From: Micrococcales bacterium
Lineage (GTDB): Bacteria > Actinomycetota > Actinomycetes > Actinomycetales > WQXJ01
Length of the DNA stretch: 64,000 nucleotides
Assembly (NCBI GenBank): GCA_009784895.1
Contig: WQXJ01000004.1
Span: 3,193-67,192, forward strand
Direction: 5' to 3'
In this document: piece by piece, positions 23,374 through 47,550 of the stretch
Numbering within the stretch: the first letter of the stretch is position 1
How the letters are laid out: every line of letters begins with the position of its first letter
The notes under the pieces: model-generated
What the model saw: the letters and a program-made list of their open reading frames with translations, nothing else
Databases searched by the model: none
What the model was told of the DNA's origin: nothing
Program-made: the position numbers and the translations under genes

Positions 23374-24741
23374 CTAGCCGGTAACCTCGGCGGATCCCTG
23401 ATCGGGTGCCTGGCCGGTTTCGGCACCACCAAGGCCCCCGGGCGAGCTGGCCAAGGAGCGCAACTCGGCGGCGACGTCTTTCAGATCTGACAGGGCATAG
23501 TTCACCGGATCACTCAGCGCCTTTTCGACAACGGTCACAACCGAGCCTTTGACCTTGACCAGCCAGGCCGCCCGCCATTTCTCCCTGGCACCAGCCCCGC
23601 CAAAAAGTCGGCTCAGCCAACCTGGCTTGGCAGGCTGGCTAAGGTCCGCCAAAGATTCGTTCAGCCTGGTGGCGAGGTTGGCCGCCGATGCAGTGGCCAG
23701 TGCCGCGACATCCTGCCACGGCTCGGGCAACACGGCGGTGGCAGCCCCGATGTAGCCTTTGACCAGCGGGCGCACTTCGGCTGCTGTCACCTCGACCAAC
23801 CCAGGCGAAAATGGCTCCGGCGAGCCGTCGAGCGCTAGCGCCTCTAGGGCCTCGGCCACCGTTTTCCCCGCCGCCGCCAGGCCCTGGCCGTAAGCGGCCA
23901 TTTGATCTGCGCCCAGGTATTCCGCCAAAGGCGCCTGAGCCAACACCTCGCCGGCCTCCCGGGCCAGGTCACCGGCTACTCGCCGGGCCGCCACAGTCTC
24001 CTCCGCCGTCCGTTCGACCAAGACTGAGCGCAAATCCTCGATCCCCTCACCCGTCACCGTCGAGGTGACCAGCAGCTTGGGGTTGGCCCACCCACCTGAC
24101 TCCAAAAGCGAGGTCAAAGCCTCGCTCACCGGGGCGGCATCGGCCTGGGACAACTGATCGACCTGGTTCAAGACCACCAAATTGACCCGGCTGACCTGCT
24201 CCAAGGCTGAGGGCAGAAACAGTTCACGCAAGCCTGGATCGGCGTACTTCTGCGGGTCGGTCACCCAGATCAAAATGTCCGCCAAGGGCAGTATCCGCTG
24301 GGCCACCTTGTGGTGCTCAACATCGGCTGAATCCGAATCCGGCAGATCAACCAGAATCATGCCGCCCCACTCCCCCAGCTCCGGTTCGAGCACCGAATCG
24401 CGTTGGATGGTGTCATCCGGGTTGACCCCGGCCCACTCCAGCAGCGGCGCCGCGCCGGGCCCCCAAACGCAGGCGTTAGCCTTAGTCGTTGTCGGCCGCA
24501 GTGCCCCGACCTGCGCAAACTCCATTTTGGCCAGTGCGTTGAAAAGTGAGGACTTGCCCGAGCCACTGCCACCAACCAACGCCACCAGGGTGTGGTCAAC
24601 GCCTCGCTCAAGGCGCCCGATGACGCCGGCCAAGCTTTCGGGGCAACCTGACCAGGCCTCGTCCCCTAGGCGCTTGGTCAGCAAATCGCATAGCTGGTAC
24701 AACCGGTTGGCCCTTTGGCGCAGGGGTTCGATTCCGCTCAT
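23374..24741 (-). CDS. P-loop GTPase domain protein (dynamin/YfjP-like), second of a pair
   Basis: G1 motif GGSGSGKSSLFNAL, then LVDLPDSDS and IWVTDPQKYAD. The ATG at 24741 overlaps the upstream TGA (ATGA). Confidence 0.6.
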   Translation of the reverse strand: MSGIEPLRQRANRLYQLCDLLTKRLGDEAWSGCPESLAGVIGRLERGVDHTLVALVGGSGSGKSSLFNALAKMEFAQVGALRPTTTKANACVWGPGAAPLLEWAGVNPDDTIQRDSVLEPELGEWGGMILVDLPDSDSADVEHHKVAQRILPLADILIWVTDPQKYADPGLRELFLPSALEQVSRVNLVVLNQVDQLSQADAAPVSEALTSLLESGGWANPKLLVTSTVTGEGIEDLRSVLVERTAEETVAARRVAGDLAREAGEVLAQAPLAEYLGADQMAAYGQGLAAAGKTVAEALEALALDGSPEPFSPGLVEVTAAEVRPLVKGYIGAATAVLPEPWQDVAALATASAANLATRLNESLADLSQPAKPGWLSRLFGGAGAREKWRAAWLVKVKGSVVTVVEKALSDPVNYALSDLKDVAAELRSLASSPGGLGGAETGQAPDQGSAEVTG

Positions 24742-26573
24742 GGTGTTGTTGCCACCACCTCCGGGATAGCGTCGACCGTCTTGGCGCATAGGGACAGACG
24801 GCGGGCCAGGCCGGACAGGCCCGTCGGCTGAGCCGTGGCCGTTTCGATGGCTTCGCCAAACAGGGCTAAGTCCAGGTCAACGGCCCCGGCCAAGGCTCGA
24901 GCCTGGGCCTCAAGTCCAAGTCTAACCAGGTCGTTGACGCGGTCTGGTGCCAGGGCCTCAAGGTAGACCGCAGCGTTGTCCGCGCCCAGGGCTACTGCCT
25001 GGACTAGTCGGGCCATTCCGTCCTTGGTTAGTGCTTTGGTGGCGAGCACAATGGTCTCGTCCCCGGTTTCGGCTAGCCGGCTGGCCAGGTGTCGCCTCCA
25101 GAGCAGATGCGGGTCGTTGTCACCGGGCCTCAAACGCAACCAATGGCGAGGGTGACTGGTTTTGCTGGCCTGGCTGGGGCCGTCATCGGGCCGGAGCAGT
25201 CCCCCCGGCTGGGCCAGCGCGCGGGTACCTTCCGGCACCTGGCCTGATTGCCACAGCCCAACAACCCGGCGGCGCGCCCGCCGTGTGACTTGGTCTGCCA
25301 CCTGTTTGACCGCCTGGGCCAAGGGCTGCTCGAGCCGGTCGAGCGCCAGCCTGACCTTTTCTGCCACCGCCGCATGCGGCGCCAGCTCCTTGTGCTGGTC
25401 GATGAAGGCAATCAGCCCCTCGGTCTCTGATTCCCAAATCAGTCGCAGCTGGGCCTCGGGTTCGATGGCGTCAGCGTTGGCGGTGGGCCCGTTTCCGGCG
25501 CCCAAAGCGGCCTTAGGCGCGGTGGCGGCCAGCGCGGCGCTGGTGGCGGCGCCGCCTGCATCGACGGCCGCCCGGAGGGCCTGAGCCGCCTGGTTGACCA
25601 CCTCGGCGGTGGCTTCATCGGTCGCCTGGCGCAGCAAGTCCAAGGTCGCTTGATGCACCTTTTCCGCTCTAACCAGGCGTTTTGTCTTGTCTAGCGCTCT
25701 GACAACTGACTCGTGAATCGAACTGACGTTGTCCACGGCCTGCGGCCATGGGTCGAGGCCTTGTTCCGCCAACCAGCTCTGAATTGGCTCAGCAGCGACC
25801 GTGTCGAGGGCGGTGACAGGGCCTTTGGCTCGCAGCACTGTCATAACCGGCAAGTCCGGCCAGCCCCGATCAGCCAGCATCTGCTTGGCGTCTGCCACAA
25901 CCACGTCGACTGACTCCCTGGGCAACCGGTTGATCAGGAAAAGTGTCGGCACCTGGGCTGGCATGATGGCGCCGAGCAGATCCCAAACCAGTGCATCGCC
26001 GTAACGCAGACCACTGGCCACCACAATCCAGCAGTCGACCGGCAACTCCACCTGGTCCAAATTGTCTGGGTTTCCGGCCGCGAAAGGATCGGACAGGTCT
26101 AGGACCGCCCGGCCCGGCAGCACCTCATCTCCCAGGCAAAGCGCGCTTTGGGTCAAGGCTGGGTGGCCGGCCATGAGGGCCGCCGTCGACGGCCTGACCA
26201 GGATTTGCGGTTGGGCTGTGGTCGGTCGCAGAGCCGAAACTGTCGCCAGATCCTGCCCCGCCAGGGTGTTGGCCACAACTGATTTGCCGGTACCGGTCGG
26301 TCCGGCCACACCAATAACCTTCGGTTCGCCCACTTGACGCAGCCGAGGCAACAGCTCATGATCCAGGTAGTACCGCAATTGGTCCTGCGCCAGGCGAGCC
26401 TCAGCCGAGGCTATCGAGGGAAAAGGGAATGTCACGGCGTCCAGTTCGCTGCGAAGCGCGCTGACCACTTCAAGCGTGGCGCCGTCGCCCTGCTCAGGCC
26501 GCATCATCCAAGTTTTGCCTACATCAAGGCCTTGTGCAACGATGCGCGCCCGGCAGGCAGTGATTGGGCCCAA
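24738..26573 (-). CDS. P-loop GTPase domain protein (dynamin/YfjP-like), first of a pair
   Basis: G1 motif GVAGPTGTGKSVVANTL, then VLDLSD. Long Ala-rich helical C-terminal region. Start codon uncertain. Confidence 0.55.
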   Translation of the reverse strand: MGPITACRARIVAQGLDVGKTWMMRPEQGDGATLEVVSALRSELDAVTFPFPSIASAEARLAQDQLRYYLDHELLPRLRQVGEPKVIGVAGPTGTGKSVVANTLAGQDLATVSALRPTTAQPQILVRPSTAALMAGHPALTQSALCLGDEVLPGRAVLDLSDPFAAGNPDNLDQVELPVDCWIVVASGLRYGDALVWDLLGAIMPAQVPTLFLINRLPRESVDVVVADAKQMLADRGWPDLPVMTVLRAKGPVTALDTVAAEPIQSWLAEQGLDPWPQAVDNVSSIHESVVRALDKTKRLVRAEKVHQATLDLLRQATDEATAEVVNQAAQALRAAVDAGGAATSAALAATAPKAALGAGNGPTANADAIEPEAQLRLIWESETEGLIAFIDQHKELAPHAAVAEKVRLALDRLEQPLAQAVKQVADQVTRRARRRVVGLWQSGQVPEGTRALAQPGGLLRPDDGPSQASKTSHPRHWLRLRPGDNDPHLLWRRHLASRLAETGDETIVLATKALTKDGMARLVQAVALGADNAAVYLEALAPDRVNDLVRLGLEAQARALAGAVDLDLALFGEAIETATAQPTGLSGLARRLSLCAKTVDAIPEVVATTP

Positions 26574-34295: not shown

Positions 34296-34312
34296 CTATC
34301 ATTTGCATGCAA
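34296..34312 (+). promoter_or_regulatory. Candidate -10-like hexamer plus a perfect 10-bp palindrome upstream of the RelB/DinJ-MazF operon
   Basis: TATCAT (34296-34301) and TTGCATGCAA (34303-34312) lie directly upstream of the AGGAGG (34321-34326) and ATG 34332. TA operons are typically autoregulated at such sites. Confidence 0.3.
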
Positions 34313-34331
34313 TCGTTAGCAGGAGGCCACA

Positions 34332-34577
34332 ATGAGTACCGTTCAGCTTGCCACGAGGGTCGAAGAGTCTCAGGACCGGCTCTTTCGGGAAACCACCAAG
34401 CAGCTGGGAACAACCCCGGCAGACGCTATGCGTATGTTTGTGGCTGCTTTTAACCAGCACCGCGGCTTCCCTTTCGACGTGCGCCTCGACCGGAGTGTCG
34501 AGTTGCTCGAGACCGAGGAGGACGCCGTTGAATTCGCCTCCCATCTGTCTCGGAAGGTGCTCAATGAAGCGAGGTGA
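34332..34577 (+). CDS. RelB/DinJ family antitoxin
   Basis: VQLATRVEESQDRLFRETTKQLGTTPADAMRMFVAAFNQHRGFPFDVRL matches the RelB/DinJ ribbon-helix-helix pattern. Strong AGGAGG RBS. Confidence 0.8.
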   Translation: MSTVQLATRVEESQDRLFRETTKQLGTTPADAMRMFVAAFNQHRGFPFDVRLDRSVELLETEEDAVEFASHLSRKVLNEAR

Positions 34578-34914
34578 CATTTGGACCCTCCATGACGGGC
34601 GATACGCGTCAAAGGCCCGTCCAGTGGTCCTAGTGCAACACGACTTTGCGGGTTTCGACTCGGTGATCGTGTGCCTACTCACGTCGTTCAACCGAAGAGG
34701 GACACCGTCGCGCGTTTCGGTGGAACCCACTCCGACAAACGGACTGAACAAGACCAGCTACGTGATGGCAGACAAGTTACTCACCGTCAGTCAGGATGAG
34801 CTCGGCGACAGGGTCGGGAATCTGACCGACGAACAGGTGCATGAGGTGTCATGTTCGTTGGCAAGGGTGCTCGCCATTGGCCGGAGCCAAGCACAGCCCG
34901 ATCCGTCTGACTGA
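34564..34914 (+). CDS. PemK/MazF family toxin (endoribonuclease)
   Basis: MKRGDIWTLHDG...SKARPVVLVQHD...VIVCLLTS...NGLNKTSYVMADKLLTV. The ATG at 34564 overlaps the antitoxin 3' end by 14 nt. Confidence 0.8.
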   Translation: MKRGDIWTLHDGRYASKARPVVLVQHDFAGFDSVIVCLLTSFNRRGTPSRVSVEPTPTNGLNKTSYVMADKLLTVSQDELGDRVGNLTDEQVHEVSCSLARVLAIGRSQAQPDPSD

Positions 34915-35837: not shown

Positions 35838-38800
35838 TCAGACCGGCTGTTCGGTTTCGGTAACCAGGCCGTTTTCGACCGCCAGACGGCCCTCTCTGAG
35901 CGCGCCCTCCAATACGCCGTCCAGCCGCTGGCGCGCCTCGGAGTCCATCTGGACGCCAAAAGCACTGGCGGTCCTGGCAAAGGTTTCGTCACGCCCCTTA
36001 CCTGGGTCACGGCACACGGCCTCGATCATGGCATTACGCAGCTCGTGGTACGGGATTTCGTCGAGCTGCCGCCTGTCACCCGGCACGCGGAAACCGGCGT
36101 AGCTGGGAGGGTCAACGCCAGCTGGCCAGGCGATTGAGTCGCCGTTTTGAGCGGCGTGGAGTAGCCCCACCGGCAGGGACTTGCGAAGGGACTTGCGCTG
36201 TTCATCGGTCATTTGCCCGATGCCGAAGCGCGCCGCCACGATCCGTATCAGCCGGTCAGCCACGACTGGGCCTTCTTCGCTGACCACCGCGATGGCGACC
36301 TGGCCTACCGGGCTGACCTCCTTTTTGGAACGGCTGACCATGTCCTCTGGTCGGTGGCCGGCCTGCTCGGCGGCGGCCTTGAAGACTAGGGTGTCAGCGG
36401 TTCGCTCTGGGCCCTCTAAGGCCTGTGGCACAGCGGAGTCGTGGTCAATGGCCGGGGTGGCGGTCGGGGGTTGCGCTGGATCTTGCGAACTGGGCTCTGC
36501 CTCGGCCACCGGTGGCGGTCCAAAGTCAGCCGGCATCGGCTGCAGAACCTCGGTCTCATGCGACGTGCCGGGGGCATGCGGAAGCTCGGTCTCGCGAGAA
36601 AGGGGCAGATCAGCTGGGGATGGCGGTGACACCTCGGCGTCATGCGAAAGCTCGGACTCGCGAGAAAGGGGCAGGTCAGTTGAGGGTTGATGCGGAAGCT
36701 CGGTCTCGCGGGAAACAGGCAGATCAGTTGGGGATTGCTGCGAAAGCTCGGTCTCGCGGGAAACAGGCAGATCAGCTGGGGATGGCGGTGGCACCTCAAG
36801 GTCATGCGAAAGCTCGGACTCGCGGGAGATGGGCAGATCGGTTGGGGATGGCTGTGACACCTCGGGGTCATGCGGAAGCTCGGACTCGCGGGAAACAGGC
36901 AGATCAGCTGGGGGTTGCTGCGAAAGCTCGGACTCGCGGGAAACAGGCAGATCAGTTGGGGGTTGCTGCGAAACCTCGGACTCGCGGGAAACAGGCAGAT
37001 CAGTTGGAGGTTGCTGCGAAACCTCGGACTCGCGGGAAACAGGCAGATCAGTTGGGGGTTGCTGCAGAACCTCGGACTCGGGGGGTAGGTCAAACCCAGC
37101 CGGCACCGGCTGCAGAACCTCGGTCTCGCGGGAAAGGGGCAGGTCAGTTGAGGGTTGATGCGGAAGCTCGGTCTCGCGGGAAAGGGGCAGATCAGTTGGG
37201 GGTGGCTGTGGAACTTCAGACTCGGGTAGTGGCTCAAAGTCAGCCGACATCGGCTGCGGAAGCTCGGACTCGCGGGAAACAGGCAAATCAGTCGGGGATG
37301 GCGGTGGCACCTCGGGGTCATGCGAAAGCTCGGACTCGCGGGAAATGGGTGGGGTCGGGTCGGGGTTGGTTAGTCTGACAATTGCCTCGACCTCGCTTTG
37401 CGGTGACTTCAGCCAGGCAGGCAGCCAAATCCGGTGGACCGCCAACCAATCGAGTTGCCCAGCCAAGATCCAAGCTGGCAGCCCGTCGCGATCGCCCACA
37501 CTGGGCCGCCTGGCCCAATTGGGCCCATCAAGCATGACCGCCACCCAAGACGGCGACCCCTCGCGCCTGACCGCCAAGTCGACCCGGAAGCTCGACAGCC
37601 CATAGTTTTCGACCACCTCTAGGCCAGCCGCCCTCAACGCCGCCGCCACCTGGTCCTGGTGCAAATCCTGAGGTGCTTTATCCGCCCCTACCAGCCAGCG
37701 CTGGCCGTGTTCGGCCGCCAGGAGGTAGTCCTTAAGGTGGGCCAGGCCCAGCGAACTCGAACCCGACAAGTCCCAACCAGTGGGGTCGAACGAGGTCAAA
37801 ACCACCACCTGGCGGCGAGCCCTGGTCACCGCTACGTTCAGCCACCTCTCGCCGTCCACCCGGGTCAGCAGACCCCAATTGGACGGCGCCCGTCCCTCGC
37901 CATCTGGCGCCACCGCCAAGGTCATAATGATGACGTCGCGCTCATCGCCTTGGACACTGTCCAGGTTCTTGACAAACAACGGCGCGTCGGTCCGGCTCAG
38001 GGCCGAATCAAGCCGGGCATCAGACACGCGTACCTCGTCCAGCAAATCCAGAATCAGATCGCGCTGCTGATCGCTGAACGCCACCACTCCAAAGGTCCAC
38101 TGAGGATGCGACGCCAGTTGATCGCGCAGCTCGTGCACCACGCCGTAGGCCTCAGACCGGTTGACACCACCCACCCCGGTAACGTCGTTTTCCCAAGTGC
38201 CAGTGACCCGCCGCAACACGACTCCGCGCGGCGCACCGGCATCGGCCGGAGGGCTGGGGAACGTCGCCAAACGCCCGCCGTAGTACTGGGTGTTGGAGAA
38301 GGCCAACAACGACTCATCGAGTGATCGATAGTGCCAGGTCAGGTCGAGCTTTGGCCAACCCAGCCGGGCCGCCTCGACCAGAATCGAGTCCTCGGCGGCC
38401 GGAACCAAGCTAGCCTCCTCCCGGCCAGAACTGGCCGGATCTGAGGCGTTCTGTTCAGCCGAAACTGAGCCAATTGAGGCCGGCGCTTGCTTCGAGTCCC
38501 CAACCACCACCACGGCCTGGCCACGCCCGGCGGCGCCAATCGCTTCCGGCACCCGGATCTGGGAAGCCTCGTCGAAGACGACCACGTCAAAGCCCTCAAG
38601 ATCGCCGGGCAAGTAGCGAGCCACCGAGGCCGGGCTCATCAAGAAACAGGGCACCAGCTTGCGCACCTCCTGTCCGCCAACCTCTAACAGTTGACGGAAG
38701 GTGAGCCCCCCTCGCCGCCGAGCCAGCTGAGAGAACAACTCGCCGATCTGGGCGAACGAAACATCGCCGTCAAAGTTGCGGGCCGCCACGATTCGGGCCG

Positions 38801-41800
38801 GCAGCTCAGTACAGAGACGTTGGCGCAGATCAGCCGCCTGGGTGATGAACCGATCAACCCGCCCCTGATAGGCCACTGGATCGAAGCCTCGCAAACCGGT
38901 GCCATCCAACCGCTCAACTAGGGTGGCTTGAGCGATCGCCGCCTGGATCATTTCGTCTAGCTGGCCGCCATCGACGGCGCCTTGGTCGAGAACTTGGTCG
39001 GCCCCTTGCACACCCAGTTGAGCCAGACGGTCCAATTCGCGGCGAACCCGAAGGAAGGCCGCCAGCCGCGGCGCGCCTTTCTCCAGATCGGCCTGCCAGT
39101 CATCAAGCCTGTTTACAATCTGATCGAGAAGCGATTGGTTGCCTCGCCACTGCTCCAGCCGCTCCGGCGTGACATCTAGAAGCCTGAACAACTCCCGCAG
39201 GACCTCAGCCGTCCGTTTGACGTCTCGAGCCGACCAACCCCGGGCCCTGTGCCCGGCTTGGTCCCTCACTTGCTCGGCCGCCTGGTCGAAGGTCGCCTGA
39301 TCGATCAACCCGTTGCCTCGAAGCAACCAACCTGCCCGCACAGCTCTTTCTGCCAGCCAGAGCGACTGTTCGACCTGCGAATAGTCGGCCTCGACATAAG
39401 GGTTCCAGCGTTTGGGCAGGTCGATGCCAGGAAGGGCAGCCAGGGCCGCCTCGACATCAAGTACGGCCAATTCGGCCCGCTCAGCGCCTTGCAGTATCTC
39501 CGTCAATTGCTTCAGCGGCACGTTTTCGGCATCACGCCAATAGCCCTCGAGCTCGGTCACAATCTCCCGGCGCATCCTGGCCTTGCCAATTCGGCTGGAA
39601 TCAGCCCGGTGGGCCAGCCCAATCACCGCACCCCATTCGAAACCAATCACTTCAGGGTCAAACCACTCCAGCAAGGGTTTGTACTCGATACGCAGACGCC
39701 TCAATCGTTTCGTCGCCACTTCAGCCGTGCGCAGCCATTCTTCGGCCCCGATGCCCTCAACTTGGCGCGGTGTTAACGCGTCTTTGGCCCCAATTGTGTC
39801 CAGCCACTGGGCCAAGGCGTCCAACCCGGCTGGGTCACGCGCAGCACAGGCTAGTTGCCAAACCGGCCCTTCAAGACCGGACGCCACCTCCCCTAAAGCC
39901 TCAACTGCCTGCGCCAGGCTCTTCAGGTCAAGCCCAGGCTGTGCCGCTCGCCGCTCCAGGCCGGCATCGGCCGGTTTTGTGTCAACTTGGCCGGCCACGG
40001 ACAGATTCGCGCCAACCAGCCGCCAAGGCGAATCTGCCACCAAACCGCCCATTTGGCCTAGGTCTTGGGCCAACCGGCCTCCCGCCTCGACCACCGCCGC
40101 CAACCGCTGATCCTGCCGCAGAACCTCAGGCCCCACCGTCAAGACCGGGTCTGGGCCACGCGTTTCGACCACGGCCGCAGCCCCCAGAAGATCCTGGTGG
40201 GCCTGCCAAACCGACTTGCCCATGGGGCCCGGGCTGTGCAGCCGCTGCGGGTACTGCGACAAATGCGCCACCTCTTCGCGCTGAGCCGCTAGGGCAACGT
40301 CCCAGCCAGGTGAAGTGCCCGGAGTGAATTCGATGGCTCGGCGCAGTTGGTCTATGACGGCCGCCACGGTCTGGTGCCGGCCATACAGGTCCAGGCAGAA
40401 CGGCGCCAACCCAACCGAGTCCAGGCGCCGTTTGACCACGTCCAAGGCAGTTTGCTTCTGAGCCACAAAAAGGACCGATTTGCCCGTCACCAGGCAATGC
40501 GCAATCAGGTTGGTGATGGTCTGAGATTTGCCTGTCCCCGGCGGGCCTTCTAGGACAAATGAATGGCCACCGGCAGCCCAACGAACGGCCTGGGCCTGGC
40601 CTGAATCGGCTGCCAAAGGTAGGTAGCTGGCAAACTCGCCGGCCTCTGGCAGGGAGGGTGTGGCGGGAGTCGCCATCCCGGTCTGGTTGGCTCCCAGAGC
40701 TAGGCCGTGAACAGGCTCACGCTGGCTCAAATGAGACCAGTTCATGGACAAGTCGTGCCAAATATCCATGGTGTGGGTCTGAAGGCAAATCAGGTAGGCC
40801 ACTGGCTCGACCCGGAAACAGTCGAACCTGGAGCCGGCGATGGCCCGGCCCGTCGCCTCCAGGATCTGTTCAACTTCGAGACTGCCTTCGTCACCGGTTA
40901 GCTGAGCCAGCGCTGGGATTTCCAGGCCCCAAACTGTCCGCAGTTTCTCAGCCAGGCAGAGGTTAGGGACAGCCCGGCGCGCCGGATCCAACACCATTTC
41001 GAAGTGCTGGCCACTGCGTGACTCGGTCAAATCAACCGGCACCAGACAAAGCGGCGCGTCGCCGCGTCCCTGGCGGTCCGCTTCCATCCATTGCAGCGCA
41101 CCAAGGGCCAAGTAGAGGCTGGCCTGGCTGGTCTCTTCCATGGCCAGGCGCGAGCGCCGGTCAAGGCTCCTCAGCCTGGCCGCGAAAGCGCCTTTTGACA
41201 CAGTGGCATAAGCCACGCCAGAGACCTCCAGAGCGTCAATTAGGCCCCCTCCGTCCGCCATTTGGGACCCTTCGCCGCCTCCTGGCCTGCTGGCCTGGGC
41301 TAACGAGTCCTTTGGCAATAGCTTGACCGGGCGCCCGGCGGCGACCACGGACCCCAAACGGCCCAGGCCGGCGGCAGGTAGATGCAGCGGCACCGTCAAG
41401 CCGGATCTGCGTTTGGTCAGCGGATTGCAGTCTGACGAATCGACTAGCGCCCGCTGCCAGGCCTGCACCCGGCTGGGGATCGCGGCATCGGGCGCAATAC
41501 TGGCTGATGCCGGTGGCTTCGCTGGGGCAGGTGGCGGCGACGGCGGCACCGGGGCAGGTGGCGGCGACGGCGGCACCGGGGCAGGTGGCGGCGACGGCGG
41601 CACCTGGGCAGGCGGCCCGGACGGCTTAGAGGTTTGGTCTGGCGGCAGCGGCCGGCGGGCCTGACGCGGCTGCGGCGACCGGCGCGGCTGCGGTGGCCGG
41701 CGAGGCTGACGCCGCTGGGCCGGCCGATCTGACTCGGTTGACTGCGGTGGCCGGGTTAGCTCGGGCTTTTGGACTGGCGGCGCAGTTGGCTGGGCTGGCT

Positions 41801-43829
41801 CGGGTGGCGCGGTTGGCGCAGGTTCCGGCGGCGACGGCCTCGCTTGTGGTGCCGGATGCGGCTGTGGCGGGTGGACCGGGCCGTCTTTGGCCACGCGGCC
41901 ACGAAGACCCGCGCCTGGCGGCAACCCGGCGACAGCCTGGCCCAGCTGGCCCACGATTGGCAGAGGTTTGACCACCCCGTGGGCGGCATGGACATCAACC
42001 AGGTAGGTGATCTGGTCCTGACCGGATTGGAGATGCTTGGCGGCAATCGTGCTGGCCTGCTCAAAGGTCAGCGCCTGGAAGCGCAAACACAAGGCGGTGG
42101 CCTCGACCCCAACCAAACGTCTCGACGCCGCCACCGAGGCCAGCGTTCTCTTGTCTTCGACGGCCACCACCGGCAGTTGGGCATCCTCAGTCAGAAAGCC
42201 GGCGAAGGCGTGGTCCGCCGTGACGGCGATGACTGGGTGGATGCCAGCCCGCTCCAAAGCTGCGGTGTAAATGCAGGTCAAATCCAGGCAAGTGCCCCGC
42301 CTGTCATGCAGAACTTCCCAGTGGGTGCGAATGCGCTGGCCAGAGCCCTCGAATGTCCCGGCCGGATCAGACAGCAGCAGACGGCGGCTGGCCAAAGCGT
42401 CGTAGATGGCAGCGGCAATCGCCATGACCCTTTCGGGGCCCGACTCATAACCATTCAGGCTGGCCGAACCAGTCTTCTGCTCGAGGCGCTGGCTGGCCGC
42501 CCTGAGCACTGCGTCAATGGCCGGGTCCTCGGGGCGGACAAAAGCAGCAATGGCCTCTGGCACGGACATAGCCCACCACTCGTTGGCGGCCAGTAGCCGG
42601 ATCACGCCCGATCCCCAGGCCTTGGCCTCACCGGCGTCCAGTCCTAGGCGGATTGTCGTCATGACGGCCTCATTCAGCCCGCCAAATACGGCCGGATCAA
42701 CCGAAATCACCCGCCTGGTGGCGGGCAACTCCAACAATTCCCCCGGCCCCAACGGTCCAACCTGGATGTCAACCTGGGCAGTGACTTCATCAGTTCTTGG
42801 GCCCGGCGCATCAATCACAACTGATAACGTCACCGGCTTGGTCCTGGTATCGGTGGTGTTGACCACGGCCACAGTGGTCAGCGGCGTGGCCCGGTTGGAA
42901 GCGAGGGCCAAGTTGAAAGCGTCACGATAGGCCAGATAAGCCACCACGCCGTTCGACTGGGTTGTGCAGGATCGGATACCGGGACCAAGTTCACGCTCGG
43001 CGAATGGTGCCAGCCCCCTAGCCGTCACTGAGCCCGGACCGGAACCAACAGCCGCACCGGCGTCGACGCCCACGGCACCTCCGCCAGGAGTCGGGCCCAA
43101 AGCGGCTCTGGAGCCCTCAACCGGTTTTCGGCCCGGTGCCGCGCCTGGCTGGTGGTCTGGGCGTTCTTTGGCTGTCGAATCCGCCTTTGGGTCTGGCCGG
43201 CGCCTTGGGCCCAGGGAGCCTTTCTGGTCCGCCGGCTCGGCGACAGTGACAACTACCGGGATCTCTTGGGTGCCAAAATCGGTCAGAGTCGGCTGGTAGG
43301 GAAGCGATTGATGCCCATCACCGGCGTCTAGCAAGCCGATCAAGAAGCCCACCTCTTGGTCCAAGTTGAGCGCCTGGGCCAGCTGGGCCATAGTGTCCAA
43401 AGCGCGGTCGGCCTGCCGGCGGGTGATGGAATCTGGCCGGGAGACTCGGCCGGCTTGGCGGACAATCTCCCCCACCATGGCTCGGTACTCCTGGCCAAAG
43501 GCCGGCATGACCCTGGTGTGGGCTTCGATTGCCTGCAGCAACTGCTCTAGGTTCTGGGCCGAGCCGACGCTGGGCTCTTGGCCTGGTTGCGGGTCTGGCC
43601 TGGGCGTTGGTTTTGGCCTTGGCTGCTCGGGCCAGGTTCCGGGCAAGATCTGACTGTTCTGTCCCCACAAGGGGTCCTGCGCAGATGACGGCAAGGCCGC
43701 CTCGACCATGGATCTGAGGGCTGTTTCGAGCGCGCTAAGGCCCATGGCCAACCGCTCGGCGTCGCTCTGGTTGGTCGTCATTGCCCTATTGAACCTGTCC
43801 AATCTTGCGGCTCGAAGCCACTGGCCCAT
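35838..43829 (-). CDS. Giant (2,663-aa) multidomain helicase. Modules in order are a transglutaminase-like N-module, a Pro-rich linker, a DUF4011-like region, an Upf1-like SF1 helicase (AAA_11/AAA_12), a DUF559/Vsr-like nuclease fold, a tandem-repeat tract and a DUF3320-like C-terminus.
   Basis: Uninterrupted ORF. Transglutaminase-like motifs RGTCLDL...DHAFAGF, with the Cys codon at 42288-42290. DUF4011-like motifs RVQAWQRALVDSS and LYLALGALQW..APLCLVPV. Helicase motifs are Walker A GPPGTGKSQT (40518-40547), FDEASQ (~38560-38580), WHYRSLDESLLAFSN, VQGDERDVII and VAVTRARRQV. Nuclease-fold motifs SSFRVDLAV...VAVMLDG...DRD...HRIW (~37400-37650). C-terminal EEGPVVADRLIRIVAARFG...IAWPAGVD. Confidence 0.85.
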   Translation of the reverse strand: MGQWLRAARLDRFNRAMTTNQSDAERLAMGLSALETALRSMVEAALPSSAQDPLWGQNSQILPGTWPEQPRPKPTPRPDPQPGQEPSVGSAQNLEQLLQAIEAHTRVMPAFGQEYRAMVGEIVRQAGRVSRPDSITRRQADRALDTMAQLAQALNLDQEVGFLIGLLDAGDGHQSLPYQPTLTDFGTQEIPVVVTVAEPADQKGSLGPRRRPDPKADSTAKERPDHQPGAAPGRKPVEGSRAALGPTPGGGAVGVDAGAAVGSGPGSVTARGLAPFAERELGPGIRSCTTQSNGVVAYLAYRDAFNLALASNRATPLTTVAVVNTTDTRTKPVTLSVVIDAPGPRTDEVTAQVDIQVGPLGPGELLELPATRRVISVDPAVFGGLNEAVMTTIRLGLDAGEAKAWGSGVIRLLAANEWWAMSVPEAIAAFVRPEDPAIDAVLRAASQRLEQKTGSASLNGYESGPERVMAIAAAIYDALASRRLLLSDPAGTFEGSGQRIRTHWEVLHDRRGTCLDLTCIYTAALERAGIHPVIAVTADHAFAGFLTEDAQLPVVAVEDKRTLASVAASRRLVGVEATALCLRFQALTFEQASTIAAKHLQSGQDQITYLVDVHAAHGVVKPLPIVGQLGQAVAGLPPGAGLRGRVAKDGPVHPPQPHPAPQARPSPPEPAPTAPPEPAQPTAPPVQKPELTRPPQSTESDRPAQRRQPRRPPQPRRSPQPRQARRPLPPDQTSKPSGPPAQVPPSPPPAPVPPSPPPAPVPPSPPPAPAKPPASASIAPDAAIPSRVQAWQRALVDSSDCNPLTKRRSGLTVPLHLPAAGLGRLGSVVAAGRPVKLLPKDSLAQASRPGGGEGSQMADGGGLIDALEVSGVAYATVSKGAFAARLRSLDRRSRLAMEETSQASLYLALGALQWMEADRQGRGDAPLCLVPVDLTESRSGQHFEMVLDPARRAVPNLCLAEKLRTVWGLEIPALAQLTGDEGSLEVEQILEATGRAIAGSRFDCFRVEPVAYLICLQTHTMDIWHDLSMNWSHLSQREPVHGLALGANQTGMATPATPSLPEAGEFASYLPLAADSGQAQAVRWAAGGHSFVLEGPPGTGKSQTITNLIAHCLVTGKSVLFVAQKQTALDVVKRRLDSVGLAPFCLDLYGRHQTVAAVIDQLRRAIEFTPGTSPGWDVALAAQREEVAHLSQYPQRLHSPGPMGKSVWQAHQDLLGAAAVVETRGPDPVLTVGPEVLRQDQRLAAVVEAGGRLAQDLGQMGGLVADSPWRLVGANLSVAGQVDTKPADAGLERRAAQPGLDLKSLAQAVEALGEVASGLEGPVWQLACAARDPAGLDALAQWLDTIGAKDALTPRQVEGIGAEEWLRTAEVATKRLRRLRIEYKPLLEWFDPEVIGFEWGAVIGLAHRADSSRIGKARMRREIVTELEGYWRDAENVPLKQLTEILQGAERAELAVLDVEAALAALPGIDLPKRWNPYVEADYSQVEQSLWLAERAVRAGWLLRGNGLIDQATFDQAAEQVRDQAGHRARGWSARDVKRTAEVLRELFRLLDVTPERLEQWRGNQSLLDQIVNRLDDWQADLEKGAPRLAAFLRVRRELDRLAQLGVQGADQVLDQGAVDGGQLDEMIQAAIAQATLVERLDGTGLRGFDPVAYQGRVDRFITQAADLRQRLCTELPARIVAARNFDGDVSFAQIGELFSQLARRRGGLTFRQLLEVGGQEVRKLVPCFLMSPASVARYLPGDLEGFDVVVFDEASQIRVPEAIGAAGRGQAVVVVGDSKQAPASIGSVSAEQNASDPASSGREEASLVPAAEDSILVEAARLGWPKLDLTWHYRSLDESLLAFSNTQYYGGRLATFPSPPADAGAPRGVVLRRVTGTWENDVTGVGGVNRSEAYGVVHELRDQLASHPQWTFGVVAFSDQQRDLILDLLDEVRVSDARLDSALSRTDAPLFVKNLDSVQGDERDVIIMTLAVAPDGEGRAPSNWGLLTRVDGERWLNVAVTRARRQVVVLTSFDPTGWDLSGSSSLGLAHLKDYLLAAEHGQRWLVGADKAPQDLHQDQVAAALRAAGLEVVENYGLSSFRVDLAVRREGSPSWVAVMLDGPNWARRPSVGDRDGLPAWILAGQLDWLAVHRIWLPAWLKSPQSEVEAIVRLTNPDPTPPISRESELSHDPEVPPPSPTDLPVSRESELPQPMSADFEPLPESEVPQPPPTDLPLSRETELPHQPSTDLPLSRETEVLQPVPAGFDLPPESEVLQQPPTDLPVSRESEVSQQPPTDLPVSRESEVSQQPPTDLPVSRESELSQQPPADLPVSRESELPHDPEVSQPSPTDLPISRESELSHDLEVPPPSPADLPVSRETELSQQSPTDLPVSRETELPHQPSTDLPLSRESELSHDAEVSPPSPADLPLSRETELPHAPGTSHETEVLQPMPADFGPPPVAEAEPSSQDPAQPPTATPAIDHDSAVPQALEGPERTADTLVFKAAAEQAGHRPEDMVSRSKKEVSPVGQVAIAVVSEEGPVVADRLIRIVAARFGIGQMTDEQRKSLRKSLPVGLLHAAQNGDSIAWPAGVDPPSYAGFRVPGDRRQLDEIPYHELRNAMIEAVCRDPGKGRDETFARTASAFGVQMDSEARQRLDGVLEGALREGRLAVENGLVTETEQPV
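36540..37350 (-). repeat. In-frame 48-bp tandem-repeat tract inside the giant helicase gene, encoding PTDLP(V/L)SRE(S/T)E(L/V)(S/P)QQP-type 16-aa units with 22-aa variants
   Basis: There are 13 clear DLPxSRE(S/T)E units plus about 3 degenerate ones. Four near-identical consecutive 48-bp units occupy 36879-37070 (ctcggactcgcgggaaacaggcagatcagttgggggttgctgcgaaac). Confidence 0.9.
41524..41604 (-). repeat. Perfect 3 x 27-bp tandem repeat encoding (PPSPPPAPV)x3 within the Pro-rich linker of the giant gene
   Basis: ggggcaggtggcggcgacggcggcacc repeated three times without mismatch (41524-41550, 41551-41577, 41578-41604). Confidence 0.9.
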
Positions 43830-43852
43830 CGTAATCTCAGGTGGGCCATCTA

Positions 43853-43870
43853 GGTGGCGAATTGGCCACC
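43853..43870. promoter_or_regulatory. Inverted repeat in the divergent intergenic region upstream of the giant gene; candidate operator
   Basis: GGTGGC-gaattg-GCCACC lies 24 nt upstream of the ATG at 43829. A related half-site GGTGGGCC sits at 43840-43847. TGGCCCA (43822-43828) and TGGGCCA (43842-43848) also form an inverted pair around the start codon. Confidence 0.2.
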
Positions 43871-44074
43871 GGCGAGCCGCCTATCCCCCATTCCAAGGTG
43901 GCCGGGCCTGGGTTGCAGCTCAAGTCTGCGGCGACCCGGGCGTGGCTCGGCTTGCCGACATTGCGGCTGGTAAGGGCGCATTTGCCCGATGGCGTCGCTT
44001 GTCACTGCCGTTAATCTAAGGCAGCATTACCTTGTTACGGGGAAGGTCATGATCACACAGCTATTCACCGCCAA

Positions 44075-45274
44075 TTGGCAAATCTGGCTCGAAAACGATC
44101 ACCAGGGCGCGCTTCGCTTAGGCCGGGTTCTGCCCGCGCGGTCGTTGGGACAACTGACGTGACCCACCACCCCGGACCGTCCGTTAGTGCGGCTGTCCTG
44201 CTGCTGACCGAGCGCCTTGAGCCGCTAATACGCCGCAGGCTAGAACCGATGCTGGGCTCTGCGCCGTGGACTGATGCCCTGGTGGAGCTCGACCGGGTCA
44301 GGGGCTGTGAGCCGGTCACATTTGAAGCCAATGACCCGAAAGCCCAGCTGCGGCTGGTAACCGAACGGCTAGGCCAGCTGGGGTACCCGTTCGAACCCGA
44401 CGATGGCCACGGGTCGGTAACCAATTCGGGCCTGGCCCTTCGAGTGACGGTTTGCCGTTTGGCTCAAGGCAGCCAGTTCACCGCACCCGAGGCTTGGCGG
44501 GCCTACGACCTGGTCCGCCAACTGCTCGACGCACTGGGCGATAGTGAAGGTGCCGTCGCGGCCTCGACCGGCCAGGCTGCCTTGGTCGAGTTGGCCAGCG
44601 AACAAGAGGGTCTGACCTTGGATGAGATCCGGGGGCCGGAACTAGTGAACCTGCCGGCCAAACCTCGGTCGAAAAGAAAGGAGCCAGACCAGCCCGTTGT
44701 GCCGGCATCGGAAGTCTGGGATCTCCCGTTTGACAGCCTCAAGCGGCTGATTGGCCGCCGCCGCCCTGCGTTCGAACCGTGGGTGGCGGTACCCGTTGGT
44801 CAACCAGATCAGCTTTCCCGAACCGACCAGCCAGCCGTCAGAGACCAAATTAGGGCTCTGGCCCTGGAAATCGCCAAGTTCGAAGGCCCCATTCACGTCC
44901 ACCGGTTGGCCACCCTGATCGCTCACTCGTTCGGTGTGCCCCGCCTGTTCCCAAAGCGCTCGGTCGATATCACCGACCAGATCCTCCTGACCCAGGGCCT
45001 CGAGGTTGACGTAGACGACTTCATCTGGCCATTTGCCGTCGACCGGGTGGGCTGGCGCCAGTTCAGGCCCAATGATTCAACCGTCGACCGCCCGGCCTGG
45101 GCCATCAGCCCGGTTGAGATCGCCAATGCGGCCGAGTTTTGGCTGGAGCGATCGGTTGGAGGCAGCGACCTGGAAGGGACTATTCTGCGAACCTTTGGCC
45201 AACACCGAGCCAGTCGAGACAACCGCAGGCACATCCGCTTGAGCATCCAAGACCTGGCCCTGGCCCACGCCTGA
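44075..45274 (+). CDS. DUF3320-like domain protein with an N-terminal helical domain resembling a degenerate Swt1-like HEPN; divergent partner of the giant helicase
   Basis: The C-terminal half (ALEIAKFEGPIHVHRLATLIAHSFGVPRL...DFIWPFAVDRVGWRQFRP...ILRTFGQHRASRDNRRHI) aligns by eye with the giant protein's C-terminus (VSEEGPVVADRLIRIVAARFGIGQM...DSIAWPAGVDPPSYAGFRVP...TFARTASAFGVQMDSEARQRL). The ORF opens at TTG 44075. GTG 44159 is a likelier start. Confidence 0.65.
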   Translation: MANLARKRSPGRASLRPGSARAVVGTTDVTHHPGPSVSAAVLLLTERLEPLIRRRLEPMLGSAPWTDALVELDRVRGCEPVTFEANDPKAQLRLVTERLGQLGYPFEPDDGHGSVTNSGLALRVTVCRLAQGSQFTAPEAWRAYDLVRQLLDALGDSEGAVAASTGQAALVELASEQEGLTLDEIRGPELVNLPAKPRSKRKEPDQPVVPASEVWDLPFDSLKRLIGRRRPAFEPWVAVPVGQPDQLSRTDQPAVRDQIRALALEIAKFEGPIHVHRLATLIAHSFGVPRLFPKRSVDITDQILLTQGLEVDVDDFIWPFAVDRVGWRQFRPNDSTVDRPAWAISPVEIANAAEFWLERSVGGSDLEGTILRTFGQHRASRDNRRHIRLSIQDLALAHA

Positions 45275-47023: not shown

Positions 47024-47290
47024 TCATCGGTTTCGGTTGTAAATGTCGCGGCGGTGGCCCACCGCGATCACTAGTACCACCAGAATGTCGTTTTCGATCT
47101 GATAGATGACCCTGTAGTCGCCGGTGCGCACGCGCCAGGCGCCTTTGACACCGGCCAGTTTGATCGCGCCGGGCGGGCGGGGCGCGGTGGCTAAAAGATC
47201 AATCGCCACCTGGACATGCCGACGAGCGGCTAGGTCGAGCTTGGCCAACTGTCGCTGAGCCCGACCGGTCAGCTTGACCCGGTAGTTCAT
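47024..47290 (-). CDS. relE: RelE/ParE family toxin
   Basis: 88 aa. MNYRVKLTGRAQRQLAKLD...AWRVRTGDYRVIYQIENDILVVLVIAVGHRRDIY is the classic RelE/ParE pattern. It overlaps the antitoxin stop by 4 nt. Confidence 0.85.
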   Translation of the reverse strand: MNYRVKLTGRAQRQLAKLDLAARRHVQVAIDLLATAPRPPGAIKLAGVKGAWRVRTGDYRVIYQIENDILVVLVIAVGHRRDIYNRNR

Positions 47291-47550
47291 TCCAGACCTA
47301 GATCAGCCTTGACCTGCTCCCATGGCACCGGATCCTCCCCGGCAGCCATTTCCTTGCGGGCGGCCTTGACCTGCTCCAGGTCCGCTTGGTCCTCCGCCGC
47401 CGCGATCAGGCGGTCTAAATCCGACGCGTCAATTACGGCCGCCACCCGGCGCCCTCGCCGGGTCAAGTAAACCGGCTCATGGTCCACCCGGGCAGCGTCA
47501 ACCACATCAGCCAGCCTGGCCCGGGCGGCCGTTACCGTCATCTCGCTCAC
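47287..47550 (-). CDS. yefM: Phd/YefM family antitoxin
   Basis: MTVTAARARLADVVDAARVDHEPVYLTRRGRRVAAVIDASDLDRL. Start is either GTG 47550 or ATG 47541. Confidence 0.85.
   Translation of the reverse strand: MSEMTVTAARARLADVVDAARVDHEPVYLTRRGRRVAAVIDASDLDRLIAAAEDQADLEQVKAARKEMAAGEDPVPWEQVKADLGLE

What the first reader, a model, noticed from the sequence alone, without database searches (positions are those of the whole stretch)
35838..43829. Giant 2,663-aa helicase-nuclease ORF: an expanded Hhe-like (DUF4011 / Upf1-like SF1 helicase / Vsr-DUF559 fold / DUF3320) candidate defence protein
Seen directly: one uninterrupted 7.99-kb ORF with these modules in order.
- An N-terminal module ends in a transglutaminase-like Cys/His pair (RGTCLDLTCIYTAALERAGIHPV...DHAFAGF). 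It is preceded by the ...LLAANEWW...FVRPEDPAIDAVL...LNGYESGPERV... block that I associate with DUF4011-helicase N-termini.
- A ~160-aa Pro-rich linker follows.
- The DUF4011-like region carries RVQAWQRALVDSS and LYLALGALQW..APLCLVPV.
- The SF1 helicase has GPPGTGKSQT, a ~650-aa insertion, then FDEASQ, GDSKQAPAS, WHYRS, VQGDERD and VAVTRAR.
- Next come a DUF559/Vsr-like fold, about 16 tandem 16-aa repeats, and a DUF3320-like end.

Established knowledge, from memory: this core layout (DUF4011 + Upf1-like helicase + Vsr-like endonuclease) is the one reported for the single-gene anti-phage system Hhe (Gao et al. 2020). Upf1-like helicases also occur in Nhi and Mokosh.

Inference: this copy carries three extra low-complexity or repeat expansions and a dedicated divergent partner, and it lies between two TA modules in an accessory stretch. 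It may therefore be an undescribed two-gene variant rather than a plain Hhe.
Basis: partly seen in the sequence, partly recalled or inferred. Interest (0 to 1): 0.85.

Follow-up and report, generated by a model that had tools for sequence, protein, structure and literature searches.

The report
Divergent ProA-type giant helicase-nuclease gene
This 8-kb gene encodes a very divergent member of an already described family of giant helicase-nuclease proteins labelled as anti-phage (ProA/PDC-S37, related to Hhe), and the neighbouring gene is not a regular partner of that family, so the find is a curiosity rather than a new system.

Summary
The ORF is 35838-43829 (-), 2,663 aa, and every quoted motif, the Pro-rich linker and the roughly 16 tandem 16/22-aa repeats are present.

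The interpretation needs correcting in four ways.
- The protein matches NCBIfam "anti-phage protein ProA" end to end at 1294 bits (cut-off 1500), and PADLOC PDC-S37. Hhe models match only its C-terminal half.
The full layout (HEPN, transglutaminase-like domain, SF1 helicase, Vsr-type nuclease, wHTH/DUF3320) was described in 2013 for MTES_1575 and related actinobacterial giants.
- The "650-aa helicase insertion" is typical of the family. Only the three low-complexity stretches are extras.
- The divergent neighbour is a stand-alone HEPN+DUF3320 protein. Its family usually sits behind a type IIG R-M gene and an SNF2/PLD gene. None of 80 genomic loci with giant homologues carries it. It lies near a giant only in Mycolicibacterium smegmatis-type islands.

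Two things are peculiar to this locus. Both HEPN domains lack the catalytic Rx4-6H residues, whereas 105 of 107 partner homologues keep them. Both proteins are also outliers at otherwise conserved positions.

Verdict: a new, divergent member of a known kind. Interest is low to moderate.

The parts
35838..43829 (-). Giant ORF of 2,663 aa. The likely true start is Met17 (ATG at 43781), giving 2,647 aa.
   Evidence: A gene caller on the near-identical ENA contig starts at MTTNQ. The family HEPN profile starts aligning at aa 22.
43347..43766 (-). Swt1-like HEPN domain (aa 22-161) with a degenerate catalytic motif: 'QAGRVSR' where relatives have xNxxAH or RNxxAH.
   Evidence: Pfam HEPN_Swt1 E=0.0018 on aa 1-290. 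A profile built from the HEPN domains of 18 related giants scores 46 bits. Motif alignment.
42960..43247 (-). Gly/Ala/Pro-rich low-complexity linker (aa 195-290).
   Evidence: Composition G 18%, A 16%, P 14%. No family match.
41946..42914 (-). ProA N-terminal module (aa 306-628): a beta-sandwich followed by a transglutaminase-like alpha/beta core with invariant C514, H540, E576 and D612.
   Evidence: ProA model positions 1-317, 254 bits. Invariant columns. AlphaFold2 model pLDDT 86.9. Foldseek hits to factor XIII, PNGase and BDI_1141 are weak, E>1e-3. Pfam Transglut_core E=0.07.
41505..41945 (-). Pro-rich linker (aa 629-775, 37% Pro). It includes a 27-nt x3.4 tandem repeat at 41524-41616 (PSPPPAPVP).
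   Evidence: Relatives have 25-50 aa here. The ENA contig has one copy fewer of the 27-nt unit.
40941..41447 (-). DUF4011 domain (aa 795-963).
   Evidence: Pfam PF13195, 62.6 bits against a gathering score of 22.2.
40416..40607 (-). N-terminal part of the SF1 helicase domain with Walker A GPPGTGKSQT (K1101).
   Evidence: AAA_11, AAA_19 and AAA_30 hits. Motif position. The nearest solved relative is IGHMBP2, and the match is weak.
38640..40412 (-). Large region of about 590 aa between Walker A and Walker B. This is typical of the family.
   Evidence: Aligns with ProA model positions 716-1287, 159 bits. No Pfam family.
37794..38621 (-). Helicase Walker B to motif VI (FDEASQ, GDSKQAPAS, WHYRS, VQGDERD, VAVTRAR).
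   Evidence: AAA_12, 50.1 bits. Motifs. Unusual substitutions at near-invariant sites: P1784A, G1992D, R1996W.
37377..37658 (-). Vsr-type restriction-endonuclease fold (REase_MTES_1575, aa 2058-2151).
   Evidence: Pfam PF18741, 46.8 bits against a gathering score of 38.2.
36429..37370 (-). Acidic Pro/Ser/Glu-rich tandem-repeat insert (aa 2154-2467), 15-16 units of 16 or 22 aa.
   Evidence: Tandem Repeats Finder: 36575-37292, periods 48 and 66 nt. Unit list. This is the longest Vsr-to-C-terminus spacer among about 95 full-length relatives that could be measured (356 aa; typical 50-170, maximum 207).
35949..36428 (-). C-terminal DUF3320 / winged-helix region (aa 2468-2627).
   Evidence: ProA model positions 1739-1902, 61 bits. 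Pfam DUF3320 19-23 bits, below threshold.
43782..44158 (.). Divergent intergenic region between the two refined start codons.
   Evidence: Sequence read. No sigma-70-like promoter, terminator or inverted repeat was detected.
44159..45274 (+). Neighbouring gene for a stand-alone Swt1-HEPN + DUF3320 protein. It is 371 aa from GTG 44159; the ORF is open from 44075. Its HEPN motif is dead ('VCRLAQG' where relatives have 'VRNRWAH').
   Evidence: Pfam HEPN_Swt1 E=0.0024 and DUF3320 25.9 bits. More than 100 homologues. Motif comparison: 105 of 107 keep Rx4H. Start refined from the family consensus. AlphaFold2 pLDDT 88.

Best explanation
The ORF encodes a highly divergent member of the ProA / PDC-S37 clade of DUF4011 helicase-nucleases. 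This clade is a sister group of Hhe. The protein belongs to the actinobacterial 'MTES_1575-type' sub-architecture, which has an N-terminal Swt1-like HEPN domain.

Shown by the analysis:
- Domain order is HEPN, beta-sandwich plus transglutaminase-like Cys-His core, DUF4011, Upf1-like SF1 helicase with the family's long internal region, Vsr-type nuclease, and a wHTH/DUF3320 tail.
- Three disordered expansions are specific to this copy.

Inferred mechanism:
- The protein acts as a single polypeptide.
- The wHTH/DUF3320 tail and DUF4011 engage nucleic acid.
- The ATP-driven SF1 motor translocates or unwinds.
- The Vsr-fold nuclease cuts foreign or replicating DNA.
- The transglutaminase-like module serves as a sensor or regulatory module.

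In relatives the HEPN domain is probably a second, RNase effector. Here it has lost the catalytic Asn/His and can at most bind or dimerise.

The adjacent gene belongs to a separate, widespread family of stand-alone HEPN+DUF3320 proteins. These resemble the two ends of the giant without its enzymatic middle. They normally accompany type IIG R-M + SNF2/PLD operons. Its juxtaposition with the giant here is lineage-specific and not a defining feature of the system.
For: - NCBIfam ProA covers the protein in three ordered blocks: aa 306-628 to model 1-317, aa 775-2153 to model 347-1702, and aa 2468-2627 to model 1739-1902.
- PADLOC PDC-S37 scores 677 bits.
- Pfam DUF4011, AAA_11, AAA_12 and MTES_1575 are all above threshold.
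- The HEPN domain is confirmed with a family profile.
- The same architecture is described in PMC3710099.
- The M. smegmatis homologue MSMEG_1252 is about 36% identical in each of the BLAST-aligned blocks. It passes the ProA cut-off at 1820 bits.
- MSMEG_1252 lies between an Ssp-like DNA-phosphorothioation cluster with a ScoMcrA-SBD gene and the experimentally validated type III Druantia system MSMEG_1253/1254.
- Another relative sits beside an SNF2/MTase/ResIII cluster.
- The family occurs on 434 plasmid records, many conjugative.
- There is no synteny between the window's flanks and the loci of homologues, so the gene is accessory.
- Walker A and B, motifs V and VI, and the Cys/His pair are retained.
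Against: - The ProA score (1294) is below NCBI's equivalog cut-off (1500).
- I could not find the paper that named ProA. The anti-phage label therefore rests on database names and genomic context.
- No experiment bears on this protein.
- It deviates at 22 of 181 family positions that are at least 90% conserved (median 5). These include R1996W, G901S and P1784A (motif III). Catalytic competence is therefore uncertain.
- Apart from two toxin-antitoxin pairs, the neighbours in the window are ordinary metabolic and transport genes.
- In Pseudomonas aeruginosa a large DUF4011 gene is a core gene (PMC10250203).
- MSMEG_1252 protein is lower in a pafBC mutant, together with RecA, RecB and RecQ (PMC5656591). 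This leaves room for a role in DNA metabolism.
Confidence: 0.68

Rival explanations
1. This is a true two-gene system. The giant and the divergently transcribed HEPN+DUF3320 protein work together, for example as a HEPN-HEPN heterodimer in which both dead HEPN domains act as a regulatory or dimerisation interface. The small protein would deliver or restrain the helicase-nuclease.
For: - The two genes are adjacent and divergent, with a 377-bp shared upstream region.
- The small protein is homologous to both ends of HEPN-bearing giants: the partner profile hits giants at their N- and C-termini.
- A homologue lies 3.5 kb from the giant in M. smegmatis and 2.4-8.8 kb away in two metagenome loci.
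- Both HEPN motifs are lost only here. In the partner family 105 of 107 members keep Rx4H.
- Both proteins are outliers at conserved sites, which fits co-evolution.
Against: - None of 80 genomic loci of giant homologues has a stand-alone partner within 10 kb of the match.
- Nor do the loci of the closest relative or of another HEPN-dead giant.
- Of the full-length partner loci sampled, about 18 of 42 have an SNF2-type gene close by. In at least 10 it lies immediately upstream, often preceded by a type IIG R-M gene. Only 2 metagenome loci, plus M. smegmatis, have a giant nearby.
Confidence: 0.17
2. It is a housekeeping or stress-response enzyme of DNA metabolism (a repair or recombination helicase-nuclease) and not an immune protein.
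For: - A large DUF4011 gene, with a small hypothetical neighbour, is core in all P. aeruginosa isolates.
- MSMEG_1252 protein drops in a pafBC mutant along with RecA, RecB and RecQ.
- The window is a chromosomal region with GlgE/GlgB, NadE and PepN, and no integrase.
Against: - Distribution is patchy, with no conserved synteny.
- The family occurs on many conjugative plasmids.
- Relatives are embedded in defence islands.
- Curated labels call it anti-phage.
- Fusion to HEPN and Vsr-type nuclease domains is typical of conflict systems.
Confidence: 0.1
3. The locus is a decaying relic. Both genes are under relaxed selection and are no longer functional.
For: - Both HEPN sites are dead.
- Substitutions fall at positions that are 98-100% conserved.
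- Repeat and low-complexity regions have expanded, and the 27-nt repeat differs in copy number between assemblies.
- A fragmented copy exists on a Microbacterium plasmid.
Against: - An uninterrupted 8-kb reading frame and an intact 1.1-kb neighbour argue for maintenance.
- The core ATPase motifs, the Vsr-fold match and the Cys/His pair are kept.
- Two other family members deviate even more.
Confidence: 0.08

Closest known systems
ProA (NCBIfam NF058533 'anti-phage protein ProA') = PADLOC candidate PDC-S37
   Same: The order of modules is the same along the whole model: N-terminal beta-sandwich/transglutaminase-like module, DUF4011, split SF1 helicase, Vsr-type nuclease, DUF3320 tail.
   Different: The score is below the equivalog cut-off (1294 against 1500). 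This copy has an extra N-terminal HEPN domain and three low-complexity expansions. It has many substitutions at conserved sites. I could not locate the primary publication for ProA.
MTES_1575-type giant proteins (Microbacterium testaceum MTES_1575; Brachybacterium squillarum gi 380301041), described by Anantharaman et al. 2013, Biol Direct 8:15
   Same: The architecture is identical, including the Swt1/Abi2-family HEPN at the N-terminus, the transglutaminase-like domain, the SF-I helicase, the Vsr REase and wHTH domains overlapping DUF3320. The host phylum is also actinobacterial.
   Different: That paper rates the HEPN of this group as 'active'. Here the Asn/His of the motif are replaced. This copy is about 500 aa longer because of its linkers and repeats.
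MSMEG_1252 of Mycolicibacterium smegmatis mc2 155 (2,121 aa)
   Same: It is about 36% identical in each of the three BLAST-aligned blocks and has the same domains. A homologue of the small HEPN+DUF3320 gene lies nearby.
   Different: It passes the ProA cut-off (1820 bits) and has an intact RNKWAH motif. It lies in a clear defence island next to type III Druantia. Its small gene is on the same strand and separated by an SBD gene, an insertion sequence (IS) and a DUF732 gene.
Hhe (Gao et al. 2020; NCBIfam NF042953, PADLOC PDLC02194)
   Same: It is a single-gene DUF4011 + SF1 helicase + Vsr-like nuclease defence protein. The C-terminal helicase and nuclease half is homologous. The mechanism of Hhe is still unknown, and phage DNA-metabolism genes act as triggers.
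   Different: The Hhe models match only aa 1559-2160 (453 bits against a cut-off of 2000). In those searches they did not align the N-terminal transglutaminase-like module, the HEPN domain or the DUF3320 tail.
Stand-alone Swt1-HEPN + DUF3320 proteins of Actinomycetota (e.g. P0112 of M. smegmatis, annotated 'Swt1 family HEPN domain-containing protein')
   Same: The neighbouring gene is a full-length member (325 bits against the family profile). It has the same two-domain layout.
   Different: It lacks the RNxxAH motif that 105 of 107 relatives keep. It is not preceded by the usual type IIG R-M + SNF2/PLD genes.

Membership tests
ProA (NF058533) | Whole-protein score at or above NCBI's curated equivalog cut-off (1500 bits) | tested here: not met
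   1294.4 bits. For comparison, MSMEG_1252 scores 1820 and a Muribaculaceae protein 2190.
ProA (NF058533) | Colinear coverage of the whole 1,903-position model (N-module, DUF4011, helicase, nuclease, C-tail) | tested here: met
   Model positions 1-317, 347-1702 and 1739-1902 are matched in order.
ProA (NF058533) | Demonstrated anti-phage activity | not testable with these tools
   There is only a database label. Ten literature searches did not find the source paper.
PADLOC PDC-S37 | Significant match to the PDLC05009 profile | tested here: met
   E=2e-203, 677 bits, aa 876-2154 against profile positions 96-1338 of 1550.
Hhe (Gao 2020) | Full-length match to the Hhe models (NF042953 cut-off 2000; PDLC02194) | tested here: not met
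   453 bits covering only aa 1559-2160, and 326 bits covering only aa 1669-2152.
Hhe (Gao 2020) | DUF4011 + SF1 helicase + Vsr-like nuclease in one polypeptide | tested here: met
   Pfam DUF4011, AAA_11, AAA_12 and MTES_1575 are all above the gathering score.
MTES_1575-type HEPN giants (Anantharaman 2013) | N-terminal Swt1/Abi2-family HEPN domain | tested here: met
   Pfam E=0.0018. A profile of related giants' HEPN domains scores 46 bits on aa 22-161.
MTES_1575-type HEPN giants (Anantharaman 2013) | Catalytically competent HEPN (Rx4-6H) | tested here: not met
   'QAGRVSR' in place of xNxxAH or RNxxAH.
MTES_1575-type HEPN giants (Anantharaman 2013) | Transglutaminase-like peptidase domain | tested here: inconclusive
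MTES_1575-type HEPN giants (Anantharaman 2013) | Vsr-family REase (PF18741) followed by wHTH/DUF3320 | tested here: met
   PF18741 scores 46.8 bits against a gathering score of 38.2. The C-tail matches ProA model positions 1739-1902. Pfam DUF3320 is below threshold.
   0 of 80 genomic loci of giant homologues have it. Only 2 of about 42 full-length partner loci from metagenomes, plus M. smegmatis, have a giant within 10 kb.

The most novel reading that the evidence does not exclude
In this lineage a ProA-type giant and a stand-alone HEPN+DUF3320 protein have become a dedicated pair. Their HEPN domains, both stripped of the RNase motif, would have been repurposed as a heterodimerisation or regulatory switch for the helicase-nuclease. 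That would be a pseudo-enzyme-controlled two-gene variant of ProA.
Probability: 0.15. Interest if true: 0.5.

Novelty: new member of a known kind. Interest (0 to 1): 0.3.

Why it matters
Nothing is known in the accessible literature about how the ProA/Hhe clade of giant helicase-nucleases works.

This copy shows how far the family can drift while keeping an intact 8-kb frame. Its HEPN site is dead, and it carries long disordered and tandem-repeat linkers.

The work also points to a tractable model. MSMEG_1252, with an intact HEPN domain, sits in M. smegmatis mc2 155 next to a validated Druantia system and near a homologue of the small HEPN+DUF3320 gene.

The observation that the small protein equals the two ends of the giant may help to dissect what those end domains do. 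The window's locus itself adds little beyond that.

Tried and rejected
- **Source of the name 'ProA' and of PDC-S37.** Six of the ten paper searches targeted this and found nothing usable. One search was wasted on word-start matches.
- **First whole-protein homologue search.** It was swamped by low-complexity words (8,000-candidate limit) and gave only 37 hits. The exhaustive search with aa 1-640 replaced it.
- **Scan of the genome collection with alignment A1.** A tighter alignment, A2, worked.
- **Profile searches of PDB sequences.** They found nothing for the N-module or the partner, and only a weak IGHMBP2 match for the helicase.
- **Hhe membership.** Rejected.
- **'650-aa insertion' as a special feature.** Rejected, because it is typical of the family.
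- **Conserved divergent partner.** Rejected.
- **The 367-aa gene upstream of the closest relative as a possible partner.** Rejected, because it does not match the partner profile.
- **Promoter, terminator and inverted-repeat scans of the intergenic region.** Nothing was found.
- **Host taxon.** It was not determined beyond 'Actinomycetota-like'. The best relatives are Microlunatus, Isoptericola, Promicromonospora and Nocardioides.
Full report
**Observation**

The window holds a single ORF of 2,663 codons at 35838..43829 on the minus strand.

Pfam gives four hits above the curated thresholds:
- DUF4011, aa 795-963, 62.6 bits
- AAA_11
- AAA_12, aa 1816-2012
- the Vsr-type nuclease family REase_MTES_1575, aa 2058-2151, 46.8 bits

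DUF3320 is just below threshold (19-23 bits). The Pro-rich linker spans aa 629-775 and is 37% proline. Tandem Repeats Finder reports 48-nt and 66-nt periods over 36575-37292, which corresponds to 15-16 units of 'PPTDLPVSRESEVSQQ' with 22-aa variants.

**Family assignment**

PADLOC's best model is the candidate system PDC-S37 (677 bits). The Hhe model matches only aa 1669-2152. NCBIfam's best model is NF058533, 'anti-phage protein ProA' (1294 bits, cut-off 1500). The Hhe model NF042953 gives 453 bits against a cut-off of 2000 and covers only aa 1559-2160.

Scanning pieces of the protein shows that the ProA model is matched end to end, in order:
- aa 306-628 to model positions 1-317 (254 bits; this holds the Cys/His pair)
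- aa 775-2153 to model positions 347-1702
- aa 2468-2627 to model positions 1739-1902

It is therefore a family feature.

Relative to ProA, the real extras are:
- an N-terminal extension of about 300 aa
- the Pro-rich linker
- the repeat insert

In a table of about 120 relatives of at least 1,500 aa, the transglutaminase-to-DUF4011 spacer is usually 25-50 aa, against 153 here. The nuclease-to-tail spacer is usually 50-170 aa with a maximum of 207, against 356 here, which is the longest seen.

**The N-terminal extension is a HEPN domain**

Pfam gives a weak Swt1-like HEPN hit (E=0.0018 on aa 1-290). A profile I built from the N-termini of 18 related giants scores 46 bits on aa 22-161.

The literature search then showed that this complete architecture was described in 2013 for 'giant proteins' of Actinobacteria. 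It comprises a Swt1/Abi2-family HEPN, a transglutaminase-like peptidase, an SF-I helicase, a Vsr-family REase and two wHTH domains overlapping DUF3320. The examples were MTES_1575 of Microbacterium testaceum, after which the Pfam nuclease family is named, and a Brachybacterium protein (PMC3710099).

**Transglutaminase-like module**

Alignments with HEPN-bearing relatives and with HEPN-less ProA proteins show that C514 and H540 are invariant. An acidic residue is invariant as well (E576 and D612).

**How widespread, and how divergent**

An exhaustive search with aa 1-640 found the N-module in 2,583 clusters at 50% identity. Of these, 1,493 have E<1e-10. The nearest non-self relative is only 40-45% identical.

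A scan of one genome per species returned 80 loci. The best are Microlunatus endophyticus (52% in the module), Isoptericola, Promicromonospora, Nocardioides, Cellulomonas and Kocuria. More distant copies occur in Bacteroidota, Desulfobacterota, Firmicutes and others. The family is also on 434 plasmid records, many of them conjugative, and on three phage records.

The window's flanking genes are not syntenic with any of these loci.

At 181 family columns that are at least 90% conserved, this protein deviates at 22. The median is 5 and the 95th percentile is 12, so it ranks third of 90. The changes include R1996W, G901S, G1992D and P1784A in helicase motif III. Walker A and B and motifs V and VI are intact.

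**The neighbouring gene**

The ORF at 44075-45274 (+) has a Swt1-like HEPN N-terminal half and a DUF3320 C-terminal half that matches the ProA tail. Comparison with the family's N-terminal consensus places its start at GTG 44159, giving 371 aa. The gene caller's 341-aa version cuts off the first HEPN helix.

The gene belongs to a populous actinobacterial family of about 365 aa. Members occur in Dietzia, Gordonia, Rhodococcus, Mycobacterium, Kribbella, Corynebacterium and M. smegmatis.

A profile of this family hits HEPN-bearing giants at both their N- and C-termini. The small protein therefore resembles the two ends of a giant without the enzymatic middle.

**Is it a dedicated partner?**

In the 80 genomic loci of giant homologues, which extend 10 kb either side of the N-terminal-module match, no stand-alone copy occurs. 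None occurs beside the closest relative or beside another HEPN-dead giant either.

Looking from the partner side, I counted about 42 full-length loci from metagenomes.
- About 18 have an SNF2-type gene close by. In at least 10 it lies immediately upstream, often preceded by an Eco57I-like gene.
- The named-genome loci sampled separately show the same operon. One is DISARM-like.
- PADLOC identifies these neighbours as a type IIG R-M enzyme (800 bits) and 'HKD+Snf2'/DrmD.
- A giant lies within 10 kb only in two metagenome loci and in M. smegmatis.

The 'undescribed two-gene variant' is thus not supported as a conserved system.

**What is peculiar here**

In the partner family, 105 of 107 members keep the HEPN catalytic motif RNxxAH. 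The window's copy has 'CRLAQG' at those positions.

The giant's HEPN has 'AGRVSR' where relatives have xNxxAH, and MSMEG_1252 has RNKWAH. Two other giants are similarly degenerate.

The partner is also an outlier at conserved columns: 19 of 109, against a median of 2.

Loss of both HEPN sites together with adjacency is compatible with co-evolution of a pair. It is equally compatible with relaxed constraint, or with a deep, poorly sampled host lineage.

**Context and function**

The window is chromosomal. It carries GlgE, GlgP and GlgB, NadE, aminopeptidase N, an ABC-F protein and sugar-transport genes. Two tRNA genes lie 8-9 kb downstream of the giant's stop codon. There is no integrase. RelB/PemK and Phd/ParE pairs lie on either side of the locus.

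The best functional lead is M. smegmatis. The 2,121-aa homologue passes the ProA cut-off at 1820 bits and is about 36% identical in each of the three BLAST-aligned blocks. It is MSMEG_1252. Upstream of it lie, in order:
- an Ssp-like phosphorothioation cluster
- the partner homologue
- a ScoMcrA-SBD gene
- an insertion sequence (IS)

Immediately downstream lie MSMEG_1253/1254, the experimentally validated type III Druantia system.

Evidence pointing the other way:
- a large DUF4011 gene is core in P. aeruginosa
- MSMEG_1252 protein falls 1.5-fold in a pafBC mutant, along with RecA, RecB and RecQ

For Hhe, the only related system with published phenotypes that I could read, the mechanism is unknown and phage DNA-metabolism genes act as triggers.

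**Mechanism (inferred)**

- A single polypeptide binds nucleic acid through DUF4011 and the wHTH tail.
- It translocates with the Upf1-like SF1 motor and cuts with the Vsr-fold nuclease.
- The transglutaminase-like module and the HEPN domain act as sensor or regulatory modules.
- In relatives with an intact motif, HEPN would be a second RNase effector.

None of these steps is shown by my data. Only the domain composition and motif states are.

**Verdict**

This is a real and correctly described ORF. It is a divergent new member of a known kind: the ProA/PDC-S37 clade with the MTES_1575-type architecture. The partner hypothesis is largely refuted as a general rule, though it is not excluded for this lineage. 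I rate interest at about 0.3.

Noticed in passing
window 41524-41616: The 27-nt tandem repeat encoding PSPPPAPVP has one more copy in the window than in the otherwise identical ENA metagenome contig ERZ27264051 k141_5728192. The two differ by a single 27-nt indel over 27.9 kb. This is either a copy-number polymorphism or an assembly difference.
   Followed up: partly
window 44075-45274: The gene caller's start for the small gene (341 aa) truncates the first HEPN helix. The family consensus supports GTG 44159 (371 aa). Likewise the giant probably starts at Met17 (43781).
   Followed up: yes
L170 (M. smegmatis CP102342.1 1322083-1348448): A defence island with this gene order: Ssp-like phosphorothioation genes, a 478-aa gene, a HEPN+DUF3320 gene, a ScoMcrA-SBD gene, an insertion sequence (IS), DUF732, the ProA-type giant MSMEG_1252, type III Druantia DruH/DruE, and a UvrD-like helicase.
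   Followed up: partly
L009 6786-7436; L171 17183-17842: A DUF6308 gene of about 216 aa lies just downstream of the giant in two independent loci. It may be a recurrent neighbour. The window has no such gene.
   Followed up: no
L133, L134, L140, L142, L148: The partner-type HEPN domain is also fused to the N-terminus of otherwise unidentified proteins of about 1,130-1,200 aa in metagenome contigs.
   Followed up: no
L173 (Microbacterium chocolatum plasmid 2, NZ_CP015812.1): A 17.5-kb plasmid carries a homologue that is annotated as several separate CDS (hypothetical, DUF4011, DEAD/DEAH helicase, hypothetical). It is probably a frameshifted or fragmented copy.
   Followed up: no
window 34300-34914 and 47024-47550: Two type II toxin-antitoxin pairs flank the locus: RelB-like/PemK(MazF) and Phd(YefM)/ParE. 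PADLOC gave no defence-system hit for the PemK, Phd or ParE proteins; the RelB-like gene was not submitted.
   Followed up: partly
window 23374-26573: A dynamin/GTPase-like gene (471 aa) is followed by an overlapping 611-aa ORF with no Pfam match. They may be a bacterial dynamin-like pair.
   Followed up: no
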